A DNA stretch of 64,000 nt from Marsupella aquatica (Eukaryota > Plantae > Marchantiophyta), in contig OZ316897.1 of assembly GCA_973895155.1 (NCBI GenBank), forward strand, positions 14,321,375 to 14,385,374. Reading direction: 5' to 3'. The position numbers and the translations under genes were made by a program. This document shows, piece after piece, positions 12,843 to 62,105 of this stretch (position 1 is the first letter of the stretch; each line of letters starts with the position of its first letter). The notes under the pieces are model-generated. The model did no database searches and was not told where the DNA came from. It saw only the letters and a program-made list of their open reading frames with translations.

Positions 12843-12845
12843 CCC

Positions 12846-12876
<31 letters not shown>

Positions 12877-12907
12877 AAAAAGAAGAGAAAAAAGAAGAAG
12901 AAGAAGA
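12843..12907. repeat. poly(C)24 / poly(A)15 / (AAG)n low-complexity tract
   Basis: Directly visible. It ends a ~300-bp segment that is absent from the paralogous spacer near 18170. Confidence 0.85.
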
Positions 12908-13640
12908 CTGCATTGGCACCAAAAAGATATTTCAATTTACAATCCTGCCTGTGTGTTTTACTATATTTGTAAATATGCCATGATGTTTTAATATGGTTAC
13001 CCTGGTTAGGTTGGTGATTTTGTCATCTGCATATTTATGAATACAAAAAGCAGTAACAATACTGTCAATTTAAACATCTTCAGTGTGAGCTTAGTTAAAA
13101 ACTGTCTTTCAAAGATTAGTCTTGTGCTCCACGGGCCCTTCAAATTCTGGCAAGTCTAGATATTTGAAAACAAGCAACCCTCCAATAAACACCCAATACA
13201 TACCGCAGTCTCAACGGCCGTCGGCCGCCATTACCGTCGCAGTCGATGACAACTGCCCCTGCTGGTAGTTTCCCGCAACAAGCGAAGCCTCAACGGCCGT
13301 CGCCTCAACGGCCGTCGCGCTACTGTCTCCTCCCTTTGCAATTCCCGACCGCCATTTCCCTTCCCTTCATTTTTCACGCACCGGAATGAAACGAGACTTC
13401 TTTACTCTTTCAAAAGGCGGAGCGGAAAATCAACAGCGAAATCACCGTGTCTGATCGACCCCTCAATTTCGTCGACTAATTTCGTTTCTGCTGCCAGCAA
13501 CGTATGACGTGCTGCTGCATTCGATTTCGTTTTGTTACTCGGTCTTTTCCATTGATACCTTCCATTCGAGGCATGGTTGTTTTGTAATGTGCTCTGATTT
13601 GTAATATCGACTGTTGTAATGAACAGAGATTCAGTTGTAA

Positions 13641-14876: not shown

Positions 14877-16553
14877 GCGGACGTACTCCTGGGGTTTAAT
14901 CGTGTTTGATCCGCGCATCTTGTTGCATGAATGTCACGACAATAGTCAGGTGGTGAACTGGTGGTTTACAAGAATAGTTGGAGTCCCGTACATGACGGTA
15001 GTGGGCAGGAGTTAGTAGGAAATTTTCTTCTTGAGATAGGTGAGCTAGATGTTTCTGTTAAAACTGTTGCCAACATCCACGTCCAGGTTAAGAGCACGGC
15101 AGAAACTCGCCTGGAATTTTGTGCTATGACCATTTCCCTAACCTTTCGGGGTAGGACTTGAAAGGAGCGGTATTGGACTATGCTACCAATTGTGAATAAT
15201 AAACGTGCCCATGATTGTCTGAAAACGGCTACTTTGGCTGCTACGTTGCCTTTGATTACCAATTAAAGCATCAATACCGATTTTGTTCAACCTCTCGTCC
15301 CGTCCAGCTTTCATACGTTACTTGTAACTTTTGACCTCGCTCGCAAAATCTAGGACTGGAACTCTTGTCTGATTTCCAACCGTGACAACTGTTTGACCCT
15401 GTAAAGCTTCCAATGCCGATAATTGTATGACATGTGCTGAGCAAGATTCGATAACATCGTGAGCGACCATTGCAATCGACCATTGCAAGCTTTTCAGCAC
15501 GATGTTATCCAGAGACTTCAGCAATTGTAGGAGGTTGTTTTTCACCAGGCTCAGGAAGACAACTATCTGTCACGTTTCGAGTTAGCTTAGCCTGAGACTA
15601 TTATTTTTAACCAATCTGAACCGCGATGCTCGATGGAGAGAAACACTATCGGAAGTGCTGAAATCAAATTCAAGGGATGGGAGGTTGTATACCGCGAAAA
15701 GGGTGTGCGCATTTTATCATTCATTAACTTCCCACTGCAGCCGAACGAGATGCAATGACCCAACTGTGTTCTGATTGTTAAAGGAGGTGCAGAAATAATT
15801 GTACCGAAAGTCACCAGTTTAGTAACGTGCAGGGAAGTACAAGGTAGTCTGTGGGGAATGAATATATTGGACCATCGTGAAGTTTTTGTCCTTGAGGAGG
15901 AGGATATTAAAAAAACAGCAAACGCTTTGTTGCCAATGATACAAAGTGAAGAGTAGGCGGACGCGGAGGGATGTTATGAAATGCTTACATGGTGGATGGG
16001 ACAGAAGACGAAACTGCTGCTTGTGTACATTTTACAGGAAAGCGATTTTCTCTTAGTTGGCCTTCTTTTAAGGTTTCCCTGCTTTGCATTTGCCTCTTTT
16101 CTATGTCTGGTGTTTGTCCTCATTGGACCTATTTTGCTTTCCCTTTCGTTGTACTTGTTTATTCCGTTGTTGTATAATTTATGGTTCATGGTTCCCTTCT
16201 GCATACTTTATGGTTCGTGGTTTGTGGGGATTTGCAGGAATGTGATTTATTGTTGTTTTTAGGTTTCTTTGGTTGCAGTGGCGTCTGTTTCGTGTTTGGT
16301 GTTTGTCCTGTTTGGACATATTTTGCTGTCGTATTCCTTTTACTTTTTGTATAATTTATGATTGGTGGTTTGTGGAGATTTTCAGGAATGCAATTTTTTC
16401 TTCTGTTTAGGTTTGGCTAGTTGCATTTGCCTCTCTTTTCAGTTTGGTGTCGGTACTCTTTGCACGTATTTTGCTTTCCCTTTGATTATAATTAGTTTAT
16501 TCCGTTTTGTAGAAATTACGGTTCTTAAATAAAAACAATGTCATCTGAAGAGG

Positions 16554-16992
16554 TTCATGAGTTTATTCAGTACTGTTGCTTTAACTCGAACCTATACTTT
16601 ATCTAGTATGAACTACCCAGAATGAGAACACTGACCAGATAGCATATCTTATAAATACAGGATGGGCTATGTTAAGTTTGTCTTCTATTACACACGCTCC
16701 TAAGGTCACTTTTAATACCTTCTATGGATTTACTTTTGTTGAGATTTGGATCTGGTAACCAGGAATGCATTTTGAACTCCTCTGGACGTCACAAGGATTG
16801 CAAACTGGGATGTGATGTCACACAAGTACCTTCCTGTGGACGAGAGGAGCCTTCATGTACAGCATAAGGAAGGAACTCCCTGCGCACTGAGGATACATTG
16901 CTAAGTAAGCTTGTGAAAAACTATGGCACAAGACTTAGTCATTCATTGCAACGTTCATGACAACTGAGCAATAGACCTGTGATTTCTCCATT
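16554..16992 (+). pseudogene. Captured MYB intron 1/exon 2 fragment
   Basis: Homologous to ~25093-25570 with deletions and stops. Confidence 0.85.
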
Positions 16993-18745
16993 ACCTTGCA
17001 CCCAGCAATGCCAAAATTCCTTGATTAGGAGCGCTAGGAAGACATTTAAGTCCTCCTGAAGATTGATGTGTTGAGCCATTTCCAAGTCGGCTCCTCCCAA
17101 CCTAGGCAGCCGGGATTGCTGGGATGGCAGACAAGCACAGAGGGAATGAAAAGATATGTAATAAAACATGAGAAGGCAACAACCTTCAGGTGTGCTTGGT
17201 TGCTCCTCACATGCATGCAGGCAAGAGATTTGATTGTCCTGGGGTTGTCCCATCACACAATTCAATGGTTTTGATATATTGCTCTTGTGTCAGGTTCACA
17301 CAAAACCCACTACTGGTTTGTTATTGCAGGGTTCCACCCTTGCCTCCCTATTTCTTGAGTGCCTGTTTGCACCCTGGCAGTGGCCTCCTCCTGAGCTCAC
17401 TCTATTTGTTTATCTTGAGCGGAACACTTTACTTATGAGAAGAAAAACCCAATAAAACAGGGAGTAATTGAGCAAACCAAAGATAACTACTTAGATACCA
17501 AACACATTCAGTAATGAGAGAGAAAGGCAAAGAAAGGAAGAGTGAAATCAGGCCAAAAATACCAAGATCTGAACTACTGAACTCCAACCAAAATCTACAA
17601 GATCAAGGATAGTCCATTGGCAAAGATCGCTAACTACAATACTTGGCTCACAGCAAAAAAGAAATATGCTCTAGCTAGTTCAAGGAGGATTGAAACTGTC
17701 TGATCTCCTGCAATTTCACCAAGGTCAAGCAATTAATCTGTAACCAGAAAATGGGATTGTACATATTAATGTGAATGCTGTGGCAATTCTGAAAGCCAGG
17801 ATGGACCACCATGTTGAACACTGTGCTCCCATGGACCACAATTTGGGGGTCCATGGGAGCTTGAGCCCATAACATGATAATTATGAGAAAATAGGTTTAG
17901 GTTTGCACCCGCAAGGTAACTAGAGAAGGAAGGGACAATAAAAAACAGAATCCCAAATGACTCATGTTAACACACTGAAAATCAATCTCATGAAACGTAC
18001 CCGGCTGTAGTTTATGATGAAGAATCCAACTTAAATGACCAAGAATTTAGTGTCACTTTGGTGGAAGTGTAGCTCAAGTACTCCTCTAGCATATCCGCAC
18101 AACTAAATAATATTTGAACATCAAGTTACTACAATTCAAAGTCAACCCTTGGGAAATAACTATTAACTAGTACAATGACACTAAAGATATTTTGAATTAT
18201 AATCTTGCCATTGTTTTTATTGTATTTATAAATACAATATGCATCATTTTTGTATATGTTACCCTGGTTAGGTTGGTGCCTTGTTGTCTGCATAAAAAAA
18301 TAAAATTGTTAACAATATTGTCAAGCTTAACATCTTTAGTCGCACGCTAATTAAAAATTGTTTTGAAATATGTGGTCCATGAAGGTTTGAAAGACCAGCC
18401 TTGCTGCCTTGTGTTCCATGGGACCTTCAAATTCTGGCAAGTCAAGATATTTGAAAAAACGCAACCTCCAATAAACACCCAGATAACTATACCGCGGCGT
18501 CAACGGCCGTCGCCACTATTACCGTCGCACTCGATGACACCTGCCTCCGCTTCGTAGTTTTCCAAACCAAACGACCACTCAACGGCCGTCGCCTCAACGG
18601 CCGTCGCGAATTCTCTCCTCCCTTCGCAATTCCCGACCGCGATTTTTCTTCCCTTCATTTCACGTAACGGAATGAAACGCGACTCTCTTTCTAAAGGCAG
18701 AGCGGAAAAGCAACAGCGAGTTTCACTCTGTTTGATCGGGACACA

Positions 18746-19022
18746 ATTCCGTCGACAAGTTTCGTTTCTGATTCGAGCCATGTATGTAATATGTTGCTGC
18801 ATTTGATTTGGATTTGTCACTTGATTTATTTCATTGATACCTTCCGTTAGAGGCATGAGTTATTGCGTTCAATGTCGTATTCCGTCGACAAATTTCGTTT
18901 CTGAGTCGAGCCATGTATGGCATATATATGGCATATGTTGCTGCATTTGATTTGGATTTGTCACTTGATTTATTTCATTGACACCTTCCGTTAGAGGCAT
19001 GAGTTATTGCGTTCAATGTCGT
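18746..19022 (+). repeat. Tandem duplication (~133-143 bp x2) just upstream of F-box copy 5
   Basis: attccgtcgaca...gttcaatgtcgt occurs at 18746 and 18879. Confidence 0.9.
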
Positions 19023-19084
19023 TTTGTAATGTGCTCTGATCTGTAATATTGACTGTTGTAATAAACAGAGAGATTCAGTTATAA

Positions 19085-20308
19085 ATGGAGGAAGATGAGC
19101 TCAACTTCTGGCGGCCATCACCAACATTGCCCAGAATTTCACCTCAGGACATGCTGCAAGATAGCGAGAGATGTCTGCCATTCGAGAAGCTTTTTCCACG
19201 GATTCCTAATGAGATTACTTTGGACAACATTGCTACGAAATTGTCCTGGAAAGATCTTCAAGTCCTCTCATCAGTTAGTCGTGCCTGGTGTCACGTAATT
19301 CGAACTCGTCAAGTGTACGATGCGAGGGTCCGCTCGCAAACAAGAGAGACTCTCGCTCTGATTCCGAATGGCTGCTATGGTGATTTCTGTAAAATAGTTC
19401 TCTATTGCATTAGAGACATGTCTTGTTGTCTTCTTCCTCCAATCCGGTCTGAAGGGAGGGCAGGACTCCCAACGCACAGTGAATGTATTGGACTGGACGG
19501 GAAAGTCTATCTCCTGGGAGGACTCGACAGTGATGGAGACGATAATCACAGTCTTAACATGTACGTGTTGGACCTCGCGGGGCAGAGGGAGTGGAAGCAG
19601 TGTGCGAGTATGAGCGTACGAAGATTTCGCATTAGATGTGGTGCCATTAATGGCAGGATTTTTGTATTTGGGAGTACCGCAGACTGCCACCATTCTCATC
19701 GAGGAGAGGTGTATGATCCCAAGGAAAATACTTGGTCTACGCTCACGGAGTTCGTATTCGAAGAATTCGAGCATGAAGTTCATGCGGTCGACGAGCTGGG
19801 ACAGGAGCTTGTTATTTATGGGTACAGTTTGCCGGACGAAGATAGCGACGATGAGGAGGAGATGTACCCAGAATTTCTGGTTTATTATCCAGTCTCGGAT
19901 CATTGGGGAGAACTGTGCCATTCTGGCCGGGAAGATGAATGCCCATTTGTGGCACAAGGAAGGTTGCATTCGATGAGCCGTAATAATGAAATTTATATTT
20001 ACGATTTTTACAGAACCTCATGGACGCAGCTGCATACATTTTCGTTTGCTGCAAATTCTCAGCCCATTATTGTGACGGAGGATGATATCGATGACAACTA
20101 CATGATGCCAATTTGTGTTAAAGCTGTGGAAGGCGAGCTATTCGTTTTATGTCGTTGGGCTTGCAGTTTGGACGATGTCATTCTTCTTCATAGCAAGGGC
20201 TTCAATGGTGAGATAATGGAGATTGAGTTGGAGAAAGTTCCAGTTAACCTGTTTGCCAGGGCCAACGTCCATCCCCGTCTCTGTACAATGTCTCTTCTTC
20301 AAATTTGA
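19085..20308 (+). CDS. F-box/kelch-repeat protein (cluster copy 5, intronless)
   Basis: 407-aa ORF with the same architecture as the other copies. Confidence 0.9.
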   Translation: MEEDELNFWRPSPTLPRISPQDMLQDSERCLPFEKLFPRIPNEITLDNIATKLSWKDLQVLSSVSRAWCHVIRTRQVYDARVRSQTRETLALIPNGCYGDFCKIVLYCIRDMSCCLLPPIRSEGRAGLPTHSECIGLDGKVYLLGGLDSDGDDNHSLNMYVLDLAGQREWKQCASMSVRRFRIRCGAINGRIFVFGSTADCHHSHRGEVYDPKENTWSTLTEFVFEEFEHEVHAVDELGQELVIYGYSLPDEDSDDEEEMYPEFLVYYPVSDHWGELCHSGREDECPFVAQGRLHSMSRNNEIYIYDFYRTSWTQLHTFSFAANSQPIIVTEDDIDDNYMMPICVKAVEGELFVLCRWACSLDDVILLHSKGFNGEIMEIELEKVPVNLFARANVHPRLCTMSLLQI

Positions 20309-23680: not shown

Positions 23681-26600
23681 ATGGCAGAGGGTGTGCAGAC
23701 CCTTGCGTCAGCGCTTGACACCCAACCACGTCCCACTCTGCCTCAATGTCCAGTACCTGTATCTTTACATGGCTTCCAATTGTTTCCTATGGAGGGGGAA
23801 GGCATTGACGCCTTGACTTCAACTCGGTTCCACACTGTCTCGCAGTTGAAATCATGGCAGCATAGGCGGGCTTTTGAGTCCTATACATCATCTCCTCAGG
23901 TAGCTTCTTCTGGCTCTCCCAGTATCTGTGGGCTATCTGAAAGTCGGATGAAAACTGGTGTCTTTCGCCAGGACGGATCAATGGCTCTTCCATCCTATTT
24001 CCCTGGTGATGACCAAATCGGACCACATCAGCAAATTAGACCAGTCTCTATGCCGGTTGTACCTCGGCAACCTCTACTGCACCCAGGAGTTACATCCTAC
24101 GGGTCTAATGACGGCTTGAGGGGTCCAAGGCAGGACTGTTCCTGCGAGGCATTCCGAGTGAGACCAGAGAACATGTCAAGCGCTCCAACAGTCCAGCTCC
24201 AGCCAGCCGCTACGCCCAGTTCACAATCTTTTCTGAGTTTTCCTGACTCTCCAACTGGAATGCAAACGGCACCCAGTCGCCCTCAATCTGTTGCCAACTT
24301 CCTTCAATGCCCGGACTTAAAGCAACTGTGGCAGTCCAATCATGCCAGCCTTCTTCATTGTTGGTATGGTTTGCATCAGCAGAGACCACCACCTATGCCT
24401 CTGTCACCTTCTGATCAGTTCTTGCAGGCTCACTACAATGGCCAATTTCCTGTTCATAGTGGTGGTGGCTCTTTGGTTGATAGTCGCCTTCCGCAAGGTT
24501 CCCACAGGTCTTGTAAATACTGCTCGCCCTCCTTGCCCTTTTTAAATATGGGTCAAACTGCTCATGACTCATATACTCCTCCAACTGTATCTATCCCGAA
24601 TACGATGGCTACTGCAGCTCACTCATGGGGTGTGGCGTCTCCATTCTACCTTTTCCCATGCCAGAGAGCTACACCAACCCACACACTCCAAACACCGGTT
24701 GCCGCCTTTGCCTCACCATCAGACAAGCTTTCTGCTCTTTTCCACTCTCTCCAAGGTTCAAGTAGTTCACCACTTGTATATTCTTCCACTCTCCAGCTAT
24801 CAGCACAAAGTGCTTTTGGCTATGTGAAACAAAATACGCATGAAGCTCCATGTCTCACTGGCCTACCCAAGGTGGCCGACTGCATGTGGGTGAAACAAAA
24901 TCAGCCAACGCAAGATCTGGCTCCAATATCTGTGGGTATCAACCAACAATTGAATCCTGCAGCTAAACAGGATCAGTTGGAGGACCATTCTATCCGTTGC
25001 AGGCATCAGTGCCTGTCCATGAAGGTTTCAAACTTTGGCGAGCCATTGACTGCGATATCTCCAGTTACAAATCACCCTACGGTCAGCTGTTTTCATGAGT
25101 CGATTCAGTACTATTGCTTTCCAAACTCGAACCTTTACTTTATCTGGTATGAAGTACCCAGAATGAGAACAGGGACAAGATAACATATCTTTATAAATAC
25201 AGGATGGGATATGTTCAATTTGTCTCATGGGACTAGTGCTCCTAAGGTCCCTTTTGAATATCTTCTCTGCATTTACTTTGTTTGAACTTTGGATCTGGGA
25301 ATCAGGAATGCATTTTGAACTCCCCGGAGACGTCACAAGGATTGCAACCAAGATGTGACGTTTCACAACTACCTTCGTGTGGACGAGAGGATCCTTCATG
25401 TACAGCAGAAGGAAGGAACCACCTGCAGAAGGTATCTGGAAAGGGACAATGGAAAATATCAGAGGATAAATTGCTGAGTAAGCTTGTGAAAAATTATGGC
25501 ACAAGACGGTGGTCATTCATTGCAACGTTCATGACAAGTGAGTACAAGACATGCCATTTCTCCTTCTCCCATAGCTTTTTACTAAATTAGATGATCACTA
25601 GCCTCACGAGGAACATGAGCTGAACCGACTTTTAAGGCAATGTCATTTGCAACTGGAAGAGTAGGTGAATCCAGGCTTGAGCTGCATCTAGAAATTTTCT
25701 AATGGCTTCGACAAATTCTAATCTGCTTTACGGTGTCTGGATCCATGCTCAGAAGCCTACTCAGTCTTTGCAACTATGATTGAGGCAAATTAGGTTCAGT
25801 GCTTGCGAGTTTGGCTTTTTCCGCATGCATGATGGATGGTGTCTTACATCTTAAGAAGCAAACGGCGCGCATCTAGATCGAGTCCTGGTAACTCTTATGA
25901 AGCTTTGCATCGTTTCTTGAGCAAATAAATTGGGATTTTTCAACTAGCACACTAAAAGACGTTGGGCGGAAACGTTCAATTTTAACGTTCGAAGGTGTGG
26001 AGATTTCTTACTTGACTTTGTTAAGACGAGAAATATACATGAACCCAATTTGATGAAAACTACTGTCCTTTCCACCATGAGCTATTCTAGGCTGCTTGCA
26101 AAATGTTCGTCTTGCTCGCCTGAATAGGAGCCATGAGTCCGGAGTTTTTCCGAAATTGATACCGCGGAATTTTGGAAATAGTAGATAAAAGAAATCCACC
26201 CGCATGCTTTGCTCAGATCGATCAGGGAAGCAGTGCAGAGAGCGATGGGTGAATCACCTTCAGCCTAACATAAGAAAAGAATGCTGGACTGCCAAGGAAG
26301 AGGAACTTCTAGTTCATGCTCATTCCACCTTTGGAAACAGATGGTCAGCAATAGCCAAGGTCTACAATCCTTGTTAACCCTCATTCTCAGTGGGCGGTAT
26401 CTCGTCTGCTTAGTCCGCAAGTATTGGTCACAGTTTTTGAGTATCAGCGAGCTGAATTGATGCACTTTGCACCGGTTTATTTAAATGGTTTTCGAATGAT
26501 CTCATTTCATTAAGACCAATATGTGCGTGATTACATAAATGCAGATGCTTCCAGGGAGGACAGACAATTCCATAAAAAACCACTGGCATTCTGCTCTTCG

Positions 26601-32014: not shown

Positions 32015-33558
32015 ATGCCTCGAGTTTCACAACGACAAATACAGCTCAGGGCTGTAAAACAGAAACTTGAGCTTAACATTGCCCTCCTCAGCGACAGTGA
32101 TGAGTCTGACGAAGGTGAGAAGGTGTTTCATAAGATGCCTGGACAACTGAAGTGTGCAGGGATTGGAAATTTCAGTAATGAACTGTCTGATGATAGTTGC
32201 CTCCAGCTTGATTCATCTGGAGACAGTGACCATGACGAGTATGACCAAGACGACACAAGACCTGAGGACTTGCTAGAGTTGTATTTTGTGCTATATAACA
32301 CCAGGTATTTCATGCCTCGTCATGTGAGTCTGAAGTCCAATGACTTTGCCACTCAATTCTTCCATAACCTGCCAGAACTACTTTTCAGGCAACTTACAAG
32401 GATGAATAAGAATTCCTTTTTCCATTTGCTTGACTTGGTATCGACTCATCCAGTCTTTCAGAACAGGTCCCAATTTGAGCAAGCTCCTATAGTCAGGCAA
32501 ATGGCAGTTTGCCTTGACCGTCTTGGGCATGATGGTAACGGGGCTTGTCTTAACCATATGATCCCTACCTGGGGTGTAAGTACCGGTTCTTTGGTGAATT
32601 TTTCGAAACGATGCTTCTGTGCACTTGAATCTGTTCTTGCAGACCAGATCCAATGGCCAACTAGGGATGAGCGTCTTCAGCTGAGTGATGGTTTTGCCAG
32701 ACTTGGATTCCCTGGATGCATTGGTCTCATAGATGGGTCTCTCCTACCTCTTGCACAAAGACCTGCTCTCCATGGTGAGTGCTATTACGACAGGAAGTCC
32801 AGGTACTCAGTTAATGCTCAAGTGGTTTGTGACAATCGACGCAAAATCCTCTTCATGTTTACAGGTCTGTGTTGCTCCTCACTTCATAACCAGTGCTTGT
32901 ATTCTGTCACTGGCATGCTCTTTAACCATTCAATTCCGCTTAGCGTTTAATGTCTTTATCTTGACTTTGTTACAAATCACTCCTTACAGGAATGCCAGGC
33001 TCCTGTAGTGACCTCACATGTGTGAAACGCTCCCCACTATTCCAGTACTGCAATGGAGTTGGTGGAACACTTCTTTTCGATGAAAATCAGTACCTGCTAG
33101 GTGACAGTGGGTACCAAGCTCTTCCCCACTTGGTCTGCGCTTTTAAAAGGTCTGACTTCTGTCAAGACAAGGAGGACTTCAATACTTGCATTGCAAAGTG
33201 CCGGGTCACAAATGAGCACTGTATAGGGGTACTAAAATCCCGTTGGCATTCACTGAAGGAGGTCCGCACTCAATTGAACAAGAGTAAGGACTCTCTCTGG
33301 ATGATACGGTGGGTTTCCTTGTGTGGCAAACTGCATAATTACGTTATGAGCATGAACGACGAATGGTCTGAATCTGACATGGAAGAGGATAATTGTGATG
33401 AGCCCCCAGCTGTAGTGGAGGAGGCAGACATAGTCCCAGACCCTGCACGTTCCTCAAGGCGGAGAACTGCTGAGGCTGGTCACGCTATTTTACTCAGGGT
33501 TATGGACGATGCTCTCACATTCTACCGCCAACCAGGAGGATTTTTGCACCATGACTGA
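32015..33558 (+). CDS. Harbinger/PIF DDE transposase (HARBI1-like, ~472 aa). Exons 32015-32864, 32990-33558
   Basis: Motifs CIGLIDGS, YYDRKSRYSVNAQVVCD, GMPGSCSD, YLLGDSGY, RVTNEHCIGVLKSRW, LHNY. A 125-nt GT-AG intron joins the two ORFs in frame. Confidence 0.92.
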
Positions 33559-35332
33559 AGAAATAGCTTTACAGTGCTATTGTCTAGGAAACAGGAGTGT
33601 TCCTATGTTGGGTTATTCTGTGGAGCCCGAACTTGTCATTTACTAAAGTTGATTGTTTTTTAAACTCGATTTCCTTCTATTGTGGAGAGGAATTGATAAA
33701 CAATTACTTGTCTATGTGTTCAGACAAATTGCATTACAACCTCCGTTGTACCCTAAGATTCATTATCGTCTCTTTTCTACTCGACTGTGTGAATTATGTG
33801 AAGATGAATTGTGTGAATTATGTGACTCTCTGCTGTGCTCTGAGTACCTAGCTCTTGTTGAGTGACTTGACTTGGAATCCTTGAGGCTTGATCGTTTCTC
33901 AGACGTGTTACGCGCACACTGTTGTCGTAATTGTTGATCATCGCGCGCACACTGTTGTCGTAATTGTTGATCATCGCACTGTCTCACTCTGGACCCTAAG
34001 CAATCGTTCCGTAAGGAATTGGAGAGGTGTCAGATTGTTGGGACTCTTTGCTTCGGTTCTGGATCTAGCTCTTGCTCCCCAGTTATTGCGCACAATGTTG
34101 TGATAATTTGCTTTTTGTCTCTCAAGCACCCTACGCAGCTTGTTTCTCCATGGAATTGGAGAGAGGTCGGGTTTCGGGTTTAGCCTGGATTCTGGTCGGG
34201 CGACTATGGCGACGCAGTTCGTTTCGATGATATGTGGAAGGAGCTGGCAATGAAACGCCTGAGAGAGCAAGGAAGAGGTATTTCCTACGATGCAGAGCAA
34301 TTCACACTTCAGATGGCCGCCGACCTTTCTGCGCGGAAGCGAATTGTTGTTAGGGAATGTCTACAATGTAGTTGTGTTGTTGGAGATCTTCTAATGCATG
34401 ATTGGAGCCCTGACAACCTCATGCGGATTGATGACCAGTGCCGGTGATGTGCGCAATTCATTTAACAAGGGGTACAAAATTATGCAGTTAATTATTCGAC
34501 AGGGATTGGAGTTTGGGCTAACTTGTTGGCCTTCAGTTGTGTTTGAGGAGGAGAGTTCAATGCATTCGTCGATGAATCCAGCCTCGGACCTGAGATGTAG
34601 GAGGTGAATCCGTTTATGTCACTCTGTATCTCCCCTCTTCGTATAGCTCAGGATCGGATTATCAGATATGAGGACCGAAAGGGATGTAAAAGACCCCTTG
34701 ACAAGAACGTCACAGCGACGAAGGACGCTGTCGAATATCACCAACCTTTCTCTCTCCGCCAGTTGGGCCAGCGATGCTCGAGAGGGTCTGAAGGCCAAGA
34801 CCCCAAGCAAGACACTTAGTTTCAACGAGTCTCAGCACGGACCAATCGATCCCCAGCAACATATCAAGGAAACTAAGGAGTAGAAGTGCACAAAGGCGAC
34901 ATTCAATTGGAAACATCGTAATGGACGAGGACTGGAATGATTCGACCAACGTGGACAGTAGAAGCCAAAAGGATGGCGTGAGGAGGTCAGACTTAAGCAG
35001 ACGGCGTCCGGCAGTCTCGAAAGAAAGTGGTGGATAATTTAAACCTGATTTGAATATCCACATTCCTCATGGAAGCAGGGAACGAAACAACATGAAGGCA
35101 GTTATGATGGCAACGGAGCCTTAAAATTTGAGAGCCATGAACAAAAGTAGTCTACGGTGACAGTGGAGTTCCTGAGAAACAGGCATCGGCCTGGAGGAGA
35201 GTGGTGTAAAGTTCCTGCGTCTAATCTGCTCAAGTGCTTGGCTTAATTACGGAGAACTATTCCCCCCTGAAGAATGAACTAAGTACTCACCATCGAATGA
35301 ATCTACCTCTACTCTAGTGTACTGATCTACAC

Positions 35333-37571
35333 CTAATCTAGGTCGATTGAATCACCATCTTGTTGGTGAAGCCCAGACTCGGGATGTGTGGTGGAATCGG
35401 ACATTGGATTCATCGCTGCAGTAGCACAGAGAACCTTCGGAATTATCCCAAGGAGGGTTTGCATCTCATCACATGTTCTGTTTGTCTTGATGAGCTCTGT
35501 CAACAATGCAAGTGTCTGTTGAGAGTTAATACACCGAAGTTGATGATCATGCTCCACTTTTGCCTTCTTTGCTTCGTGCAATCTGGTGGATCTGTCCCTA
35601 TCTCTACTTTCTCGTGCTGTGTTCTCTCGCAATTCATTGGCATCTCGTGCAACAGCTTCTCTTGCCTCCCTTGCTTCTCTGGCAGCAGCTTCCCTGAACT
35701 CTTTTCGTTCCCGCATGTCCTCTAATCTCCATTTATCCTTTGCTTCGATGATCTGCTGCTTAAACACATTTTTCTCATTCAACTTCTCAAGGTAAACTTC
35801 GGCCAAATTAGGCCTGGATGTAGCTTGTGAGGGAACTGCCCTCCTTGGTGTTCCTCGTCGTGGGCCGTGTGGTGTTCCACGAGTTGACTGAGGCAAAGAT
35901 CTGGGTGTTGCCTGAGAAGCATCGGGAGATCCTGTTCCCAGTGGTGTTGGCTCAGGTCCCTCTGGTCGAAGATAACCATGCTGTGGAGACACATCTTCTG
36001 TTGATTCAGGTTCCTCTGGTCGCTCTGAAAAATCATCCACGGGCTGTCCATCAAGGCAGGATTCAGTCCTACATGGCATATTTGTAGTGACATCTGCAAT
36101 CATAAATTCGAAGTTAAATACCACAATCTCCACCCGACAGACCCTAGGCTGACCTTCTTCATCGGCCACACAGCAGAGGCAAGAATCTACGCTACCATCC
36201 GCAAATGCTGGCATCCATCAGTGACAAGGCAAAATAATTATCTACTCCATTTTCTGACCAGCTAACTACGCAGCTCAATCCGTGATGGGTTGACGGTATT
36301 CGGCTTGAACATTGAGCTTCTACATTGATGCCATGTTAGAGGACCACACCCATTCAGACTCTGGTATATATTTCAACCTCTCGAATAGACCCATTCTGAG
36401 AGGAGGAAAACATGGCTCGAGGGCCCAACGAAAAGAGATTAGCTAAGATCAAAGAAGATTGAGAGGCACGATCAAAGGGCTAGGGAGATTGTTGCAGAGG
36501 GTCTAGAGTCCGTTTGAAGACTTGTTCTAAGATCTCTGACTGATTAGACACAAAAGATCGCAGCCTCTGCAAATTCCTCTACAGCACATTTGGAGATCGT
36601 CCCTAAACAAGAATTATTTGAAGTATATAAAAAACTACGCCAGAAGGTCAAGCAAATAGACATTTCCTTACTATGCCTGAGAAGCGACTGGAACTCTGGA
36701 CATGACTTCTTCGCTGTCTAGTACATCTAACTACGCAAATATAGACGACTACTCCAATCCAGGAAAATCTGGGGGCTGCCGATGAGCTAAAACAATGTTG
36801 ATAACCTCCCTGTTACCTGATACGATAGTTCGCAAATGCCATATGAAGGGTTTCTCCTCGTCTCTTACAAACCAAGAGTTGCAGACCATAGTCGTTAAGT
36901 CAGACATTGAATTTGTTACCTGATGGCGTTGGAGCTGCGATGTGTGGAATTTCCTCAGCTTCACCACCATCATCGTCATCGGAGCCCTGATCCACAAATA
37001 TTTCGGAATGTCCAGGCAATCCAACACAACCTGTGCTAGGCGGGGACACATTCGCCCTGTGCCCATACAAGGCATGCATCCTCTCAAAATGAGGGCAGAT
37101 TTTGTCAAGTTTGGCTTCGATAGTAATCCCCGCTCTTATTTCTTCCATGGTAACCCCAAATCCTGAGTCTCGCTTCATACCTAGAGCTTCCTTGTATTTA
37201 GCGACATATCTACCAAATCGTTTACCCAGGTTGTCTCCATTTGCTACGAACGATGCAAAGCCTCTTGACTGAATCCAAACAAGCATCAGTCTAAAAACTG
37301 TTTTCTTATTTGGATGCTTGGTGGCTGCTCCCTTATCACGCACTCTGTCTCCTCCGTTCAGCATTGCAAAATTATCACCTTCCTCCAGCCATTCAACAAT
37401 CAACAATAAGTTTGCCGGTGTGAGTTTGCGCCCTTCAGAGCTCCCTGCCTGGGTTGCGGGAGTAGTCACCATGGCTGGCAATTCGTGAATGTGCACTGAT
37501 TGGGAATCCTGTGCTTCTTGACGCTCATCAAACAGAGCGCGTTGTCTTGAACCCGACTGAGGAAGCTCCAT
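35333..37571 (-). CDS. Harbinger ORF2, Myb/SANT-like DNA-binding protein with C-terminal coiled coil. Exons ~37571-36920, 36093-35333
   Basis: LLLIVEWLEEGDNF...YKEA...SGFGVT...LDKICPHFERMHALYGHRANVSPP domain, acidic linker and R/E-rich coiled coil. A phase-1 GT-AG intron joins ORFs 36900..37745 and 35333..36214. Start codon uncertain. Confidence 0.75.
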
Positions 37572-43023: not shown

Positions 43024-44127
43024 TTACACATTTTCGTTTTCGAGAATTGGCTTGGTTCTTGTGCCTGCTGCTGAAGGAGCCCGACTGGCTCCAAACCAGG
43101 TATGATGCAATGGTTCTCCTTGGTCCGACTTCTGTTCCATTCCTGCGAATCTGTGTTTCTTTACGTACCATACAATTAGTATGGCAGCCAGAATTAAGAG
43201 TACAATCGCTGCAAGTCCACCCACAACTGATCCCACCACTATCTTCCAGGTGTTGCTCTTACTGTGATAAGGCGGACCCAGAAGCGAATAATCCCCTAGC
43301 ACACTCCACGAACAAAGAGATGAACCAGTGACATTCTTCACTACGCCGGTGTTTGTGCCACTGACAGTATTATTGTACGAAATGCAGACCAACTCATTGG
43401 AGGCTATGTTGCGTGAAGGTTGCAATTGAACTTGAATGGGCGTGGGACCTGCCGTAATAGTCAGCTCTGTTCCATAATTATTGGTGTAATTCCTGATGTC
43501 GTTGTAGTTGTAGACCATAATTCCAACCACAGGAGCCACAAAATCCGTCCCGTTTGTGGAGCTGTAGTAATTATACTCCTTGAACCTCCTGTAGACAAGA
43601 ACCACGGACCGAAGAGATGGGACAACTGTCGTTCCTATCGGAAGGTTGATCTCATTGATAGTTATTCCGCGTCTCTTGAGACTTCCGGTTCTCAGCCGCA
43701 CCATTCGGATGGATTCTAGCTCTACCCCGTTGTTTGTGATGTTACTTGGCAGAGACGCATTGTAAGTTATCCCAGTCTGGATTCTGCTAATGTTAAGGGC
43801 GACAAGAGAGTCGAAAGCCTGGAAAAAAATCTGTTGATTTAATGCAGTCCGATTCTTTGCAAACCCATCTAAAACCTGCGAATGAGCTGAAAGAAGAAGA
43901 CTGAGAAAGGAGAACGAGAAGAGGAGCAGCACTACACTTCTTGGCCTCCATACACGGACCGGCACTCCTACTGGTACTGGTGCAACCTCTTCTTGCCTTG
44001 TTCCTGCATGCCTCCATGCCCCTGCTGTTTGCCTACTTCGGTCCAGAAATCTGGATGAGCACTGGATGCTCATGTGACTAGAATCTATGGCACACGAAGG
44101 AACAATCAGAACGCTGGTGGCCGTCAT
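43024..44127 (-). CDS. DUF1191-family plant membrane protein (intronless)
   Basis: Hydrophobic signal-like segment, RLRTGSLKRRG, VVLVY, APVVGIMVY, a C-terminal TM helix and the tail GEPL...GASRAPSAAGTRTKPILENE typical of DUF1191. Confidence 0.85.
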   Translation of the reverse strand: MTATSVLIVPSCAIDSSHMSIQCSSRFLDRSRQTAGAWRHAGTRQEEVAPVPVGVPVRVWRPRSVVLLLFSFSFLSLLLSAHSQVLDGFAKNRTALNQQIFFQAFDSLVALNISRIQTGITYNASLPSNITNNGVELESIRMVRLRTGSLKRRGITINEINLPIGTTVVPSLRSVVLVYRRFKEYNYYSSTNGTDFVAPVVGIMVYNYNDIRNYTNNYGTELTITAGPTPIQVQLQPSRNIASNELVCISYNNTVSGTNTGVVKNVTGSSLCSWSVLGDYSLLGPPYHSKSNTWKIVVGSVVGGLAAIVLLILAAILIVWYVKKHRFAGMEQKSDQGEPLHHTWFGASRAPSAAGTRTKPILENENV

Positions 44128-55259: not shown

Positions 55260-56085
55260 AAACTAAATTACTCATATCTGGTGTGAAAATGATCCAACAA
55301 GAGACCCTCCACACATCCCATGCTACTACAGTCATTTTGGTACTAGAGAAAATGATCATACTTCTTTCAACTCATTTCTGATGTGAAAATGATCCAACTA
55401 GAGACCAGCCACATCCCCATGACTCTACGGTCATTTTGGTAGAGAAAATTGTCATACTTCTTTTCAATCTTTCGATAACAGATGAGTTCACTCACTTTCA
55501 GGTGACCATGAGATAATGGTGTCAAACTGCAATCGAAAGTGAGCTTTGGGCTTTTCTTATAAGGAGTCATGATTCTGGGGCTATGTGCATTCCTTTGGGC
55601 ATAATGGACAAATGTGCCCAGTTTCCAATGAATATCTTCCTAAGCTTTACCCTTTCAGAAACGCACATAAATACATCCTATGTTTGGACATTGTTCAACA
55701 TTGTCAACCCCTTCAGGAAAGCACATGCACAAACTTCCAACAGAGGCATCACTTACTTGTCACTTCATAAGATTCTGAATGCCCATTCTTTGAATGACAA
55801 CAGAGATGATGACAAAGTCAGCCTGCATGACATACCATACATTTTATCCTCCTCATTCAATACATTTGGTAGGGCCCCAGAGCTAGGGTCTAGAGGCTTC
55901 ATTCTAGAAATCTAGACCCTAACTCTAGCCTAAATGCCCATTCTTTGAATGCCAACAGAGATATAACAAAGTCACTATGCATGACATTCCATACATATCA
56001 TCCTCCTCATTCAATACATTTGGTAAAGCCCTAGAGTTAGGTCTAGAGGGTTCACCCTAGAAGACTAGACCCCAACTCTAGCTTG
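55260..56085 (+). repeat. Two adjacent local tandem duplications (~100 bp x2 at 55270-55465; ~155 bp x2 at 55777-56083)
   Basis: gtgaaaatgatccaac...tcatacttcttt occurs twice; aatgcccattctttgaatg...aactctagc occurs twice. Confidence 0.8.
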
Positions 56086-56614: not shown

Positions 56615-58084
56615 TCAAGGTACTAAAAAAGTGCAGTTCCACATTACACTCCTTGACAATCCAAAAAACCCATCCTCAGTTTTTTCCTTTGCAAGAGTTT
56701 CGAGAGTTTGATAGAGGATGGACACGGTGAGAAAAATTCCTGTTCCTGATCCAATTGCACCCATTAAATCTGCCATGATCGTCAATGCCCCAATGCACAT
56801 TCCACCAAACGCAGCTGCTGTTGGAATGTAGCGATTGAGCTCCTTCTCCACGCTTGATTCACGATGGCCAGGCATCACCATGTTTTGTTGCTTAAGCTGT
56901 TTTGCAACATCCCTCGCTGAAGAACCAGACACTTGAATCCATGTCTTTGAGAAAAGGGCGCATGCTGTCAACATAAATACTGTGTAAAACAAGGCATGGA
57001 ACGGATCAGCCCAAATGCTTCCCAAACTGGTAGGAGGAGTGATGTAATATACAAGCCCTCCAGCAGGAATCAGTTGTCCATTTCGGAAGTAGTCCGACTC
57101 CTTCCAATCTCCAAGGAGTCGAACGAGAAAGAGACCACCGAAATTCTTGTACAGCAGTTGTGAGACGAAGTAGACATTGGAAACCAAGGCAGACTGGAGG
57201 ATGATGGGCATATTGGAGGTGTAGAAGAGCTTGATCGGGTAAGATTGCCGCCCTCCACGACCGTTGATTGAACGAATAGGCAGAACCACCTGGAAGCCTT
57301 GGAAGTAGACAACAATCAAGAATACCACAACCGTCGTCAGTAAACTGCTCAAATTCGGAAGGTTTTGTCTGAATAGTGCCTCCTTCAATGCTCGCACTTT
57401 GTCGGTCCTTGAGATAAGACCCTGGAACAAAGAAACCACAGCCCCTTCAAACTCCGCTCCACGGCCATAGTTGATGGTTGTCGGGCTGAACGCTCTCCAG
57501 ATGATGTTCTCACAGCTGTTGGTGGCAATGAACAAACTGGTGGCAGATCCGAGCCCATATCCTTTCTGCAGTAGCTCGTCCAAACAAATCACAAGTATGC
57601 CAGAGAACACGAGCTGAGCGATGATCAAGATGGCATTTCCCGCTCCAAGATGTCCAACGTTCCCATACATTCCAGTTAAAACGTAGACGACCGCTTGTCC
57701 GAGAGTGATTAGAATCCCCAACAGCTTCTGTGCACCGTTCAATAAGTCGCGATCCTCCTGTATGCTGTTGTCAACTTTTATGATCTTAGACCCCACTAAG
57801 AGCTGCAAAACCATCCCCGACATGACGATAGGAGTAATGCCAAGCTCCATAAGTGTTCCCCTGTTGGATGCTAGAATCGCTCTCGTCCAGTAGAGTGGAT
57901 CTGAACCCGTCGCTGAGTGGATTCCATAGAGAGGTAGCTGAGAGCATACTAAGAAAATGAGCAACGTAATCACTGTGTACAGCAATTTCTCTCGAAGTGG
58001 CACCTTTCTCTTTGCTGCCTGCACTTCCGGAAGAAAGGGCAGAAATGGCTTGATCAAATTGAGAATTCTAAAACCTTTTCCCAT
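56615..58084 (-). CDS. SEC61A: Protein translocon subunit Sec61-alpha, divergent intronless copy (489 aa)
   Basis: Full-length SecY/Sec61a motifs: [91 protein letters not shown]. Single uninterrupted ORF. Confidence 0.95.
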
Positions 58085-58520
58085 TGTGACTTCACGTTAC
58101 TTGAGGTCTACAGCAGTACAAACCCCGTCCTCCTTGCTGCAAAAGCCTCTTCTGGATGAAACCTCCACTCCACTACAGCTACTAGTATTTTGATTGACTC
58201 GACTCGATATTGCAGCACAAACTGAGGCAGCATGCCACGGCCCTCCCTTATATGGCCATCCACGCATCTTCTCAAATGCACACCAGCACCTTCCATCCTC
58301 TAGGACCTTCCGTTCCCGCGGAGGTGCACGTACACTCGACGTTTGACGAGTGACTGTCAAAACTGATATTGACCTGGTGCAGGTCCCTCGTCCAACCCTC
58401 TTCAAACACATGGGACTTTTTAAGTTTGACGAGGGAGAAAAAGAATCTTCACATCTAAGCAAATGCTCCGTGCATAGGATGTGGTACGCGAACAATTCGC
58501 TGAGAAGCCCCTGAGAAGGT

Positions 58521-59140
58521 GCTGACCATGCTTGCGAATTCCTTTGAATGACTATAAATGCCTAAACCTATCGTGGATCAATTAAAAGTCTGCTGACCAT
58601 GCTTGCGAAGTCCTTTGATTGACTAAAAATGCCTAAACCTATCGTGGATCTATTAAAAGTCTACAGATTCCATATTTGTGAGGCTGAAAATGGTATGCCC
58701 ATCCACAGCTCCCCAACCCAACCAGCCAAGAGGAGGATCGAGGCTGTCAGTTTCGCGCTGGAGTAGCGCGCACCGGGATGATGGGCACTAGAGGCTGTCA
58801 ATTTCGCACTGGAGTTGCGCGAACCGGGATCATGACAACTGAGATTAAATTGACGTATCACCCAGTCACATCGCGGCCGCTCCGTGATTTCTCGTTAGAA
58901 GTAAATCCAGGAGGCACATCAATCAATTAGGTTTGGTCTTTGAGCCGGATCCATGCCCACCCAAAATATCCTCCAACTGTTGTTTTTGGAAACATTCGAA
59001 GCTCAGACGAGTCGCTCAGAGGTGATTGGCAAGAGAGGTGCTGCTGGGAAGGACACCGTAGGTAGTTGAGGCTGAAGACGCGTCCCTCAGAGGTGATTGG
59101 CAGGAGAGGAGCTGCTGCCAAGGACACCGTAGCTAGTTGA
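58521..59140 (+). repeat. Three short tandem duplications (~70 bp x2, ~51 bp x2, ~69 bp x2) upstream of Sec61a
   Basis: tgctgaccatgcttgcgaa..., gaggctgtca...accgggat and ctcagaggtgattggca...aaggacaccgtag each occur twice. Confidence 0.8.
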
Positions 59141-59999
59141 GTCGATAGGCGTGCCCTGCTCTAAGGACAAGGAACTTGCACGTAGCGGAGATTGATTGGA
59201 GCAGGGCTTTACGAGTTGGATGAAAAATCTCAGTACTGCAAGCCATATTCTATGGCAATCGTAGATTGCTTGTAAATCACCCGCTACTAGTAGATACTAG
59301 TATCGCTTAGAAATTCAGCCTATTTAGGAACAGTTTCTCCTACAAATGTTAACCACCAATATCTGAGAGAAGGTTTAAGAAGAGAACTCGTTTTCTTTTC
59401 ATGCGCTTTGTAAGACAAAGACTGCAACTTTCCCGAATCGAAACATATTCGAGAAGACATTTTAATGAGAAAGCATAGCACTGTGAGATATTAGTATGTC
59501 GACCACGTCGGACTGCTACAACCTCCACCCTCGTGTTCTCTAGAAATTAACTACACAACAGACGAGGACAGACAAGAAACGAAGTACAAGAACCAAACAT
59601 GTTTTTGAAGTGATAGTCCTCTTCCGACCGTCGCGATTCCAGGAGCACCTACTTGTGTTTCCTAGAGTTTACCAAGAGCTCTTGCTCTGCAATGCCCTTT
59701 ACATAGGGACAAATCGAAGAACTTATTCCAATTCTTTCGACATCTAAACCAAAGCAGGGGAACAAGGCCCCACTTTCATATAATCTTTCCAGATACTTAC
59801 ATCATGAAAAACCCTCACGGAAAGCTTCTGTGAGACAAGTGAGAAGATTTGACCTCAATTTCTTCAAATTAAGATATGAATTGGCTACTTACATACAGAA
59901 ACATATTTTAATCCTAGTTCCATTCCCATGGTCCACCCAGATCAATTTGCTTGTCCGAGGCATCATCTTTCCAATACGCTGTTATTCCCTTGAATAGTT

Positions 60000-61574
60000 T
60001 CAATCACTCTTGGCGGTCTTTAGCTTGGTCTCGTCCAATAGTTTCTCCAACTCTCCAGTCTATAGGTAAGAGCATTCGTGTTAGCCAAATAACATGATCA
60101 ACTCAAACCGAGTTATAGCCAGCAGGTATCATACCAAGTAGCGCATACCGAGACCTAAGGAGTCTCCGTTAAGACAATGTTGTAAAAGATACCCATAGAT
60201 TGTCTGACAATACAGGATCTGATGCAATGTTGGGACCAGCAGCAGGCAAGAGTAGATAGTAGACTAACCCTGTGCATATTGATGAGGATGTCCGAACCTC
60301 CAACAAATTCACCATTTATGAAAACTTGTGGAATGGTCGGCCAGCGGCTGGTGCAAACATCAAAATCAAATTTGGGTGGCAATGATCAGAACGGGGAATA
60401 GCCTCAATTATGTCAAGTTATTCACCAAGTTCCCATTCGCTTGAGTACAGACAATTAAAGGAAAAGTTACACCGTATTTTCTATCTTAATCACCAACATT
60501 TTCATGAACCAGCTCACCTAAATTGCTTGATGCCATCTCTGAGTTCAGGGTCCGCCAAAACATTTCGTGAGTTATAACTTACATCTGCAATGTTCCAGTT
60601 GAAGTCAGGCAAAGTTCAGACTGCATGGGACTTTGGTTCTCGTGAGCTTGTAGCCAATTACAGGATCCTTCGCAAACTGAGTTACAAAATCGAAAAGTAC
60701 AATCAATACTCGGGGAAGATGTCAGCTCACCGTACTCTTTCAAGATACGAACAACCATTGCACTGAATCCACACTGGGGAGCATCTGGTACTCCCTTCAT
60801 GTACACGATGACTGCATTATCTTTGATATCCTGCAGCCAGTCAATTCGTCTGTGAATATCCCCAACCCTCTTCCTGGGAGAAAGTAGTCTCCATCTTGAA
60901 GTACTAATTGGAATTGGATGGCACCATCCTTTGACTTGTCCTCCGCCGTAGAGGGCTGATACAGTCTCCAATAATGTCGAATCATAGCTTTGCGAAAATG
61001 TGACTAGAATGGAAATTTGTTTTCCAGCTCCGTTACAGAAATATGTTAAGAGGATCTCGTAGAACATATGAGACAGTTCCGTCGAAGAGAAAAGTAAAAT
61101 GGAAAGAAAAACAGAAAGGAAGGGACGGGCAAACGAAACACGAACCTGCTCTATATGGTCTTGCACAGTTTGGGTTGCTTTTTCGGCCTTGACTTGGGGC
61201 TTAAAATCGTCATGCGAGTCTGCCTCATCACCTGCAGATACAATACCAGCTCGCTGCCCTACACGCCATGATGCACCTATTATGCCCACAGCCAGAAATT
61301 GTTCAAGATGAATTCTTCCCCTAGCTCGATCGAATTCTTCAGAAATTGAAACGCCAGATGCTAACTATTCCCTGTGGGATTTGGGCCGGAATTTTCAGTT
61401 CAATTAGACTATCGAGCCCTCAATTTGGAGAAAGAGCTGTTCAGGTAAAAACTTGGGAACAACGAAAGAGAACAGTAAAATGGTAACTGAAGAGGAGAGA
61501 ACCACACCTGTTTGAACAAGAGCCCCACGAGAAAGTCTGAGGCTCGTCGCCGCTGCCCTACATGCGGACAACAT
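60000..61574 (-). CDS. GRXS15: Mitochondrial monothiol (CGFS) glutaredoxin, GRXS15-like (~167 aa). Exons 61574-61508, 61276-61146, 60830-60731, 60584-60518, 60347-60269, 60059-60000
   Basis: Transit-peptide-like N-terminus; DSHDDFKP; [14 protein letters not shown]; [38 protein letters not shown]; TGELEKLL. All introns GT-AG and in phase. The exon 2 acceptor has an alternative in-phase site. Confidence 0.9.
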
Positions 61575-62105
61575 GGTGACCTAGCCTCTCCGTCAACCGG
61601 CTTTGGTCCTGTCCTCCGGCGATTATCCTAGACTGGATACTCGCGTTGGAGTACAAGCAGAAACCCTAAGCTTGCCTCTGCACAAGAAGCCGAATTGGCT
61701 CCTGACGGAGATCATCCGCAATTTCGCAAATCTCGGTCTCGTCAGCCAGCAGTAACCGATTCCCTCCACAACTAGACTCCACCAAACATAAAACAATGCA
61801 CATACTCAGGTCATTCGGCAATTACGCCGAATCGGTCCAAAAGGATTGTTCGTCACCTCAAAACGCGCATCGAAGCTAATGTAATGAACGCAAATCAACC
61901 AGAACAAGAGGACAGAGGCCCGAAACTACCAAAAGCGTCGTCGTCGTCGTCGTGGTCGTGCAACAGCGCGAGCGGCTCCCAAATCCCAATTCTACGACAC
62001 ACATCACGTCCACTGCATAGCAGAGCAAAGCAAAGCAGAGCACTGAGCTCTCGATTGCCGCAAAATCTGTCGATCAACGAAACAACAAGAGCAGAATCTG
62101 TGGAG

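What the first reader, a model, noticed from the sequence alone, without database searches (positions are those of the whole stretch)
56615..58084. Sec61-alpha copy carrying the natural equivalent of an inhibitor-resistance mutation (T86M) and other plug/pore-ring changes
Seen: TM2 reads GITPIVMSG (M88, codon 57823-57821) where eukaryotic Sec61a normally has PIVTSG. The plug reads [11 protein letters not shown] instead of [27 protein letters not shown] replaces GLGSGISLFIATNICE (pore-ring I179 equivalent becomes T182). TM3 has GQA where plant copies usually have GEA. Known (from memory): human T86M confers apratoxin A resistance, and the plug/lateral-gate pocket binds cotransins, decatransin, mycolactone and ipomoeassin F. 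Inference: this may be a toxin-insensitive or specialised translocon (defence against microbial Sec61 blockers, self-resistance, or altered signal-peptide selectivity). The protein is divergent throughout, so relaxed selection is a real alternative.
Basis: partly seen in the sequence, partly recalled or inferred. Interest (0 to 1): 0.75.

Follow-up and report, generated by a model that had tools for sequence, protein, structure and literature searches.

The report
Fast-evolving spare liverwort Sec61 copy
This is an intact, intron-free extra copy of the gene for the cell's main protein-export channel, likely from a leafy liverwort; it carries a change matching a lab drug-resistance mutation, but only in this one copy of a fast-changing family, so the match is likely a by-product of relaxed selection rather than a toxin defence.

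Summary
ORF 58084-56615(-) is an intact 489-aa Sec61-alpha with Met88 at human T86; 267 Thr and 2 Ser among 269 covering relatives of at least 55% identity. The gene is intronless and groups (100/100) with three divergent Calypogeia fissa copies on a branch over 20-fold longer than the canonical gene's. In DNA runs holding this locus, an intron-bearing canonical gene and a 92%-identical sister copy both encode Thr88, as do the Calypogeia copies; Met88 recurs in alleles from a second study. So T86M is recent and private to one copy. Changes are not enriched at 14 known resistance sites (2/14 against 42/465, P=0.37). GQA is the human state (Q127) and SDPLYW is wild type in fungi. The lineage was long under purifying selection (dN/dS about 0.10 against the canonical gene over 46 codons; about 0.5 against the sister, too few changes to tell from 1). 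Best reading: a retained, relaxed retro-paralog, likely a working channel with looser gating, T86M tolerated. Selected toxin resistance about 7%. No earlier scan note on this was found.

The parts
56615..58084 (-). Intronless Sec61-alpha ORF, 489 aa (P0001); Pfam SecY PF00344 and Plug_translocon PF10559
   Evidence: predicted model matches mammalian Sec61-alpha, TM-score 0.92, rmsd 1.5 A
57821..57823 (-). M88 (ATG), equivalent of human T86M in the lateral-gate polar cluster; private to this copy (sister and canonical copies have ACC, Thr)
57884..57886 (-). T67 (ACG), equivalent of human M65T in the plug apolar patch; Met in the X1 sister, the canonical gene and Calypogeia
57695..57697 (-). Q130, same residue as human Q127 (plants usually Glu); shared with the Calypogeia divergent copies
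57539..57544 (-). A181-T182, equivalent of G178A and pore-ring I179T; shared with all three Calypogeia divergent copies, so an old change of the lineage
57515..57517 (-). S190 (human I187), not in Calypogeia copies; a related contig in runs X1 and X4 has Ile
57176..57178 (-). N303 = human N300, main polar inhibitor contact, unchanged
57738..57743 (-). Site where the canonical gene has an intron (exon R-A-L-L followed by GTGAGT in the loose end of the 82%-identical contig, in all four runs) and this copy reads straight through
   Evidence: tables 7 and 8
56615..56656 (-). 13-aa C-terminal extension starting with TCA where relatives stop; likely a lost stop codon (inferred); low model confidence
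58085..58373 (-). Upstream region with a TATAAG at 58252-58247, homologous to the upstream region of a related copy on another contig (20 substitutions and 10 gap letters in 107 bp at 58267-58373)
   Evidence: table 8 record 6

Best explanation
This is an intact, intronless second copy of the Sec61-alpha channel gene, likely made by retroposition in a leafy-liverwort ancestor and kept under weakened selection, and its T86M-equivalent is a recent change confined to this copy that is likely tolerated rather than selected against a toxin. Shown: intact ORF; an intron-bearing canonical gene and a sister copy with Thr88 in the same DNA runs; one clade with three Calypogeia copies; much faster protein evolution; no clustering of changes at inhibitor sites. 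Inferred: the canonical gene does the bulk of ER import, which frees this family (perhaps expressed in few cell types; untested) to drift. It would still assemble with Sec61-beta/gamma and translocate. Polar changes in the plug (M65T) and pore ring (I179T) would loosen gating in the way of yeast prl alleles, while a non-polar residue at T86 has little effect on translocation in yeast and may partly offset them. Lower sensitivity to apratoxin-type compounds is plausible as a side effect but was not measured.
For: Intronless where the canonical gene has an intron. Clade with Calypogeia P0006/P0122/P0123: SH-aLRT 100 (quick mixture-model tree of 43 rows) and 100/100 (LG+G4 tree of 25 rows); 60 shared derived residues in 465; path about 0.30-0.37 changes per site against 0-0.013 for the canonical Calypogeia end branch. 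Thr88 in sister, canonical and Calypogeia copies. No enrichment at 14 resistance sites: 2/14 against 42/465 non-shared changes, P=0.37; 1/11 against 19/323 at sites at least 95% conserved, P=0.49; plug/TM2 region 3/41 against 39/424, P=1.0. The sister has its own TM2 changes (I86L, L93V, I101V or F, I102M). Long-term constraint: dS 0.89, dN 0.088 against the canonical gene over 46 codons (Fisher P=3e-7); 0 of 2000 neutral simulations kept the ORF open at 0.2 or more substitutions per site. Yeast T87A/I/V cause no significant translocation defect, and polar changes at L66 give prl phenotypes (PMC3518225, Results parts 1-2).
Against: Met88 needs two base changes from the ACC of its relatives and is kept in alleles from two studies, which fits selection as well as drift. 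The site is Thr in 199 of 199 relatives at 70% identity or more, including other fast plant paralogues. The dN/dS against the sister rests on 11 substitutions in 47 codons (0.49; Fisher P=0.16-0.48 against neutrality), so present-day constraint is not established. The enrichment test has little power for a single selected site. That Calypogeia copies are intronless was not checked.
Confidence: 0.58

Rival explanations
1. The copy is an incipient pseudogene: the lineage was functional, but this member became redundant after the sister duplication and is now decaying neutrally, T86M being one of the first hits.
For: Likely stop loss with a 13-aa extension; 19 changes at sites at least 95% conserved that Calypogeia copies do not share; dN/dS against the sister not distinguishable from 1.
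Against: The ORF is open; neutral survival is only 0.045-0.11 at 0.045-0.067 substitutions per site and 0.01 at 0.1, even without indels. Coding pieces differ from the related copy by 35/385 and 17/204 bases with no gaps, while an upstream piece differs by 20/107 with 10 gap letters (whether these contigs are one and the same sister is not shown, and gene conversion could also lower coding divergence). X2 allele differences in 128 bp are 2 of 2 synonymous.
Confidence: 0.2
2. The copy is a selected, specialised translocon: M65T and T86M form a compensating pair that, with I179T, resets the hydrophobicity threshold for signal peptides to serve a particular client set or cell type, as Ssh1 does beside Sec61 in yeast.
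For: The changes hit the plug apolar patch, polar cluster and pore ring, which set the threshold in yeast, where L66S/N suppress the defects of non-polar polar-cluster mutants Q129L and N302L (PMC3518225, passage). I179T is kept in both species. Adiantum has an independent divergent copy with I179S (3 proteins). One of the two distant proteins with Met at 88 also has Ser at 67.
Against: Thr or Ser at 67 occurs with Thr88 in 6 of 7 other proteins, and in run X2 the Thr88 sister appears to share Thr67 (collapsed contig), so the two changes are not obligate partners. Suppression was shown for Q129 and N302, not for T87. Gating sites are not enriched for change.
Confidence: 0.15
3. The copy was selected as an inhibitor-insensitive channel that protects the plant from microbial (or its own) Sec61 blockers.
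For: Exact residue match to human T86M; M65 is also a listed decatransin-resistance site (PMC8585047 Table 1; the substituting residue is not given there); T86 and I179 contact mycolactone (PMC7427319); an ectopically expressed resistant allele can protect cells that keep the wild-type gene (N300A, PMC10449633); cotransin and decatransin are fungal products.
Against: Private to one copy; absent from sister and Calypogeia copies. Eleven of 14 resistance sites are canonical, the third difference (Q130) is the human sensitive state, and N300 is intact. With 42 non-shared changes in 465 sites, two hits among 14 are expected by chance (P=0.37). No biosynthetic neighbour recognised. No Sec61 blocker acting on liverworts turned up in my paper searches, which were not aimed at it in depth.
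Confidence: 0.07

Closest known systems
Eukaryotic Sec61-alpha (SecY family, PF00344 + PF10559), canonical land-plant form
   Same: Full-length match, 365/465 identical to canonical Calypogeia P0129; same predicted fold; five of six pore-ring residues, R66, S71, G80, Y131, M136 and N300 kept.
   Different: Intronless, over 20-fold faster protein evolution, non-polar residue at T86 (all 264 eukaryotic sequences of PMC3518225 had Thr or Ser there), M65T, I179T, 13-aa C-terminal extension.
Calypogeia fissa divergent Sec61-alpha copies CAM6117956.1, CAM6117946.1, CAM6127465.1 (unnamed proteins)
   Same: One clade; 80-81% identical; share SAT (I179T), GQA, DPLYW and 60 derived residues.
   Different: They keep T86, M65 and I187 and carry 49 changes of their own, among them V102F; exon structure not checked.
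Human Sec61-alpha T86M laboratory allele (apratoxin A resistance; Paatero et al., known here through the review PMC11695074)
   Same: Same residue change at the aligned position.
   Different: Here it sits among about 100 other differences from the canonical plant protein, and no inhibitor data exist for this background.
Yeast Ssh1, the second, divergent translocon
   Same: A non-canonical second alpha subunit beside an essential one; Ssh1 has its own substrate range (PMC10233368, abstract).
   Different: Not orthologous: much weaker match to the 2ww9 chain (249 bits against 514-656 for Sec61 proper); the liverwort lineage arose inside land-plant Sec61-alpha.
Other fast-evolving plant Sec61-alpha paralogues (Arabidopsis P0059, Vicia villosa P0115, Adiantum P0042/P0463)
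   Same: Independent divergent copies with GQA (Arabidopsis, Vicia), DPLYWT (Vicia) or a polar residue at I179 (Adiantum).
   Different: Separate origins on the tree; all keep T86.

Membership tests
Sec61-alpha / SecY | SecY and plug Pfam domains over the full length | tested here: met
   PF00344 E=8.5e-72 (model 1-306/306), PF10559 E=5.5e-17
Sec61-alpha / SecY | Clamshell helical fold | tested here: met
   Model pLDDT 78.5, pTM 0.79; TM 0.92 to 7tm3. The model leans on a 62-row alignment, so it cannot show that the channel works.
Sec61-alpha / SecY | Six hydrophobic pore-ring residues | tested here: inconclusive
   5 of 6 canonical; I179T. Yeast has Thr at another ring site (T185; passage).
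Sec61-alpha / SecY | Polar cluster T86/Q127/N300 | tested here: not met
   T86 replaced by Met; Q127 and N300 present. Aliphatic changes at yeast T87 stay functional, so this marks a variant and does not remove it from the family.
Sec61-alpha / SecY | Translocation activity with beta and gamma subunits | not testable with these tools
   needs complementation or in vitro translocation
Retrogene | Lacks introns present in the parent gene | tested here: met
   One intron position shown directly; ORF uninterrupted
Retrogene | Poly(A) remnant and target-site duplication | tested here: inconclusive
   Only a 7-A run near 56420 and no AATAAA in 1.6 kb downstream; no flanking direct repeat pair stands out; such marks would likely have eroded at dS about 0.9
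Retrogene | Transcribed and under purifying selection | tested here: inconclusive
   Long-term purifying selection shown; recent selection unresolved; expression not tested
Natural-product self-resistance gene (resistant duplicate of a housekeeping target) | Lies in or beside a biosynthetic gene cluster | tested here: not met
   Neighbours recognised: glutaredoxin, DUF1191, Kelch-repeat genes, DDE transposase (frames under 75 aa, so short exons, were not scanned)
Natural-product self-resistance gene (resistant duplicate of a housekeeping target) | Changes concentrated at the inhibitor site and kept across the lineage | tested here: not met
Natural-product self-resistance gene (resistant duplicate of a housekeeping target) | Measured insensitivity to the inhibitor | not testable with these tools
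   needs IC50 assays

The most novel reading that the evidence does not exclude
Leafy liverworts keep a second, retroposed class of Sec61 channel with retuned gating (polar pore ring, converging with a fern paralogue), and this copy has gone on to gain M65T plus T86M, making it a naturally evolved inhibitor-insensitive translocon that shields the plant from fungal or cyanobacterial Sec61 blockers.
Probability: 0.08. Interest if true: 0.75.

Novelty: new variant of a known kind. Interest (0 to 1): 0.3.

Why it matters
[quoted passage not shown] It is a natural experiment in how far the gate of an essential channel can drift, and it gives a ready-made panel (canonical, sister with Thr88, this copy with Met88) for testing gating and inhibitor binding. 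If resistance were selected, it would show natural target-site resistance to Sec61 blockers and point to unknown blockers in bryophyte-microbe interactions; the present data make that unlikely.

Tried and rejected
No whole genome is held for this window, so copies were read from contigs of four public runs. Expression: no RNA holder listed; this says nothing either way. The exact protein is not in the 15-billion collection. A metagenome scan gave 9 loci at 50-66% identity, none of this clade. Searches for more clade members among shorter proteins (best 120 of 3396 listed), by region 55-262 (best 120 of 4305) and among 50% representatives (best 150 of 4952) found none: on 24 mostly clade-derived residues the Calypogeia copies match 22-23 by construction and the next best protein 42%; unlisted hits were not examined. 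No second copy in the window. Rejected: assembly error; GQA and SDPLYW as resistance signs; long-branch attraction as the sole cause of the clade (60 shared derived residues, 23 at highly conserved sites). The careful mixture-model tree did not finish (one search is the quick tree), and the bootstrap had not fully settled. A poly(A) tail or target-site duplication was not found. Contact distances between residues 67 and 88 could not be measured, as no coordinates are returned. Supplements of PMC3518225 and PMC7427319 could not be read, so whether yeast L66T or T87M were ever tested is unknown to me; Table S2 of the bioRxiv paper was not seen. Paper searches showed no report of this family or of natural Sec61 target-site resistance in their listings (38 listed 15 of 267; one listed 15 of 22). 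Earlier scan notes: one unrelated hit (5S rRNA), none.

Full report
Observation. The ORF at 58084-56615 on the minus strand is uninterrupted and encodes a 489-aa Sec61-alpha. The AlphaFold model (pLDDT 78.5) matches solved Sec61 channels with TM-score up to 0.92; this shows the fold is compatible, not that the channel works. Met at 88 is rare: 157 of 157 other proteins have Thr; of 468 proteins retrieved in all, 347 cover the site, and only 2, both at most 40% identical, have Met; at 55% identity or more the count is 267 Thr and 2 Ser of 269. These sets are the top-listed parts of larger hit lists and are redundant. A review confirms that T86M gives apratoxin resistance and cotransin cross-resistance (PMC11695074, passages); I did not read the primary paper.

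What is less unusual than it looked. GQA is the human state Q127, a polar inhibitor contact whose loss, not presence, gives resistance (bioRxiv 10.1101/2022.08.11.503542, passages). SDP is normal in bryophytes and SDPLYW is wild type in two fungal structures. Five of six pore-ring residues are canonical.

Origin. The closest near-length relative is a cluster of three unnamed Calypogeia fissa proteins at 80-81% identity; Calypogeia also has a canonical protein, P0129. The window is therefore likely from a leafy liverwort (inferred from this kinship only). The window protein and the divergent Calypogeia copies form one clade in both trees, share 60 derived residues in 465 positions, and lie about 0.30-0.37 changes per site from the canonical group, where the canonical Calypogeia end branch is 0-0.013. 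In one search the clade's nearest outside row is canonical Calypogeia, but the backbone is unresolved. I179T, G178A, E127Q and the plug Leu belong to this old shared set.

Copies in the same DNA. Laying four public runs on the plug/TM2 stretch gave three classes of contig. In X1: one identical to the window (X1 may be the window's source); a sister with 16 differences in 199 bp (35 in 385, no gaps); and an 82%-identical contig at higher depth that leaves the alignment at 57750 with R-A-L-L codons followed by GTGAGT, a splice donor. The third translates to the canonical plant residues F64, M67, V69, V78, T88, L91, M93, A97. So an intron-bearing canonical gene exists and this copy lacks that intron, as expected of a retrocopy. 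Both the sister and the canonical gene have ACC (Thr) at 88; the window has ATG, two base changes away. Contigs in X2 and X4, from a second study, differ from the window by 2 and 4 bases in 128 and keep ATG. T86M is thus real, shared between samples, and younger than the sister duplication. The sister has drifted in TM2 as well (I86L, L93V, I101V or F, I102M). In X2 both copies appear to merge into one contig over 57843-57944, which suggests gene conversion and would give the Thr88 sister a Thr67.

Selection. Against the canonical gene, 46 codons give dS 0.89 and dN 0.088 (ratio 0.10; P=3e-7), and no neutral simulation of 2000 kept the ORF open at 0.2 or more substitutions per site. The lineage has been a functional gene for most of its history. 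Against the sister, 47 codons give 4.5 synonymous and 6.5 non-synonymous differences (ratio 0.49), which cannot be told from 1 (P=0.16-0.48) nor from the older ratio (P=0.15-0.27). Neutral survival of the ORF over that recent span would be about 0.01-0.11, and coding pieces are about half as diverged as an upstream piece and gap-free, which leans towards continuing constraint; gene conversion weakens that argument. A likely lost stop with a 13-aa extension and 19 non-shared changes at highly conserved sites lean the other way.

Is the inhibitor pocket targeted? I took 14 resistance positions from PMC8585047 Table 1 and PMC11695074. Changes not shared with Calypogeia hit 2 of 14 (M65, T86) against 42 of 465 overall (P=0.37); all differences from the canonical protein hit 3 of 14 against 102 of 465 (P=0.63); at sites at least 95% conserved, 1 of 11 against 19 of 323 (P=0.49). 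Adding the six ring residues, or testing residues 60-100, changes nothing. The test cannot exclude one selected site, but the match needs no special explanation, and yeast scanning found many more resistance positions (19 and 14 new ones), which makes chance hits easier still. No biosynthetic gene was recognised in 72 frames at 40-64 kb plus 9 larger ORFs elsewhere in the window.

Likely working. In yeast, T87, Q129, N302 (polar cluster) and L63, W65, L66 (plug apolar patch) set the signal-sequence hydrophobicity threshold. T87A/I/V cause no significant defect, polar changes at L66 give strong prl phenotypes, and L66S/N suppress Q129L and N302L (PMC3518225, passages and Results parts 1-2 of 4; supplementary tables not readable). 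Equating window T67 with yeast L66 is inferred from the T86/T87 offset and the fungal alignments. From this I infer a channel that still translocates, gates somewhat loosely through M65T and perhaps I179T, and tolerates T86M, which may partly tighten it again. Compensation is a hypothesis: Thr or Ser at 67 occurs with Thr88 in 6 of 7 other proteins. Reduced apratoxin-type sensitivity is plausible as a side effect. A resistant second copy could in principle protect a cell (ectopic N300A does; PMC10449633, passage), so defence is not excluded.

Verdict. A real, exact natural match to a laboratory resistance allele, sitting in one member of an old, relaxed, intronless paralogue family. Relaxed but functional copy 0.58; recent decay 0.20; selected gating specialisation 0.15; selected inhibitor resistance 0.07. 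Ten paper searches were run; those aimed at this family or at natural resistance listed no description of it, but the library lacks most subscription papers. Novelty: new variant of a known kind; interest 0.3.

Noticed in passing
window 665-20308: Array of at least four intronless Kelch-repeat (F-box/Kelch-like) genes (665-1891 -, 4688-5869 +, 13641-14876 +, 19085-20308 +) plus a fragment at 9175-9489; the first two lie head to head.
   Followed up: partly
window 32015-37571: DDE_Tnp_4 transposase split over two ORFs (32015-32950, 32992-33558) with two ORFs on the opposite strand (35333-36214, 36900-37571) that have no Pfam match; looks like a PIF/Harbinger element (label recalled).
   Followed up: partly
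window 60000-61600 (-): Intron-containing glutaredoxin with a CGFS motif, the upstream neighbour on the same strand; a synteny marker for orthologues.
   Followed up: partly
window 43024-44127 (-): DUF1191 protein.
   Followed up: no
window 55775-56085: Two copies of a roughly 154-bp unit that attracts about 50-130 times the local contig depth in all four runs: a high-copy dispersed repeat just downstream of the gene.
   Followed up: partly
window 58520-58661, 58740-58834, 59005-59146: Three short tandem duplications (71, 51 and 71 bp period) in the upstream intergenic region.
   Followed up: no
window 57843-57958: Sister and window-type copies collapse into single contigs here (44 bp in X1, 122 bp in X2), a hint of gene conversion between the paralogues.
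   Followed up: partly
P0042, P0399, P0463 (Adiantum); P0115 (Vicia villosa): Independent divergent plant Sec61-alpha copies repeat some of the same changes: polar residue at pore-ring I179 in Adiantum; M65T, E127Q and I187T in Vicia.
   Followed up: partly
window 23681-25183 (+): 500-aa Ser/Pro/Gln-rich ORF with no Pfam match.
   Followed up: no
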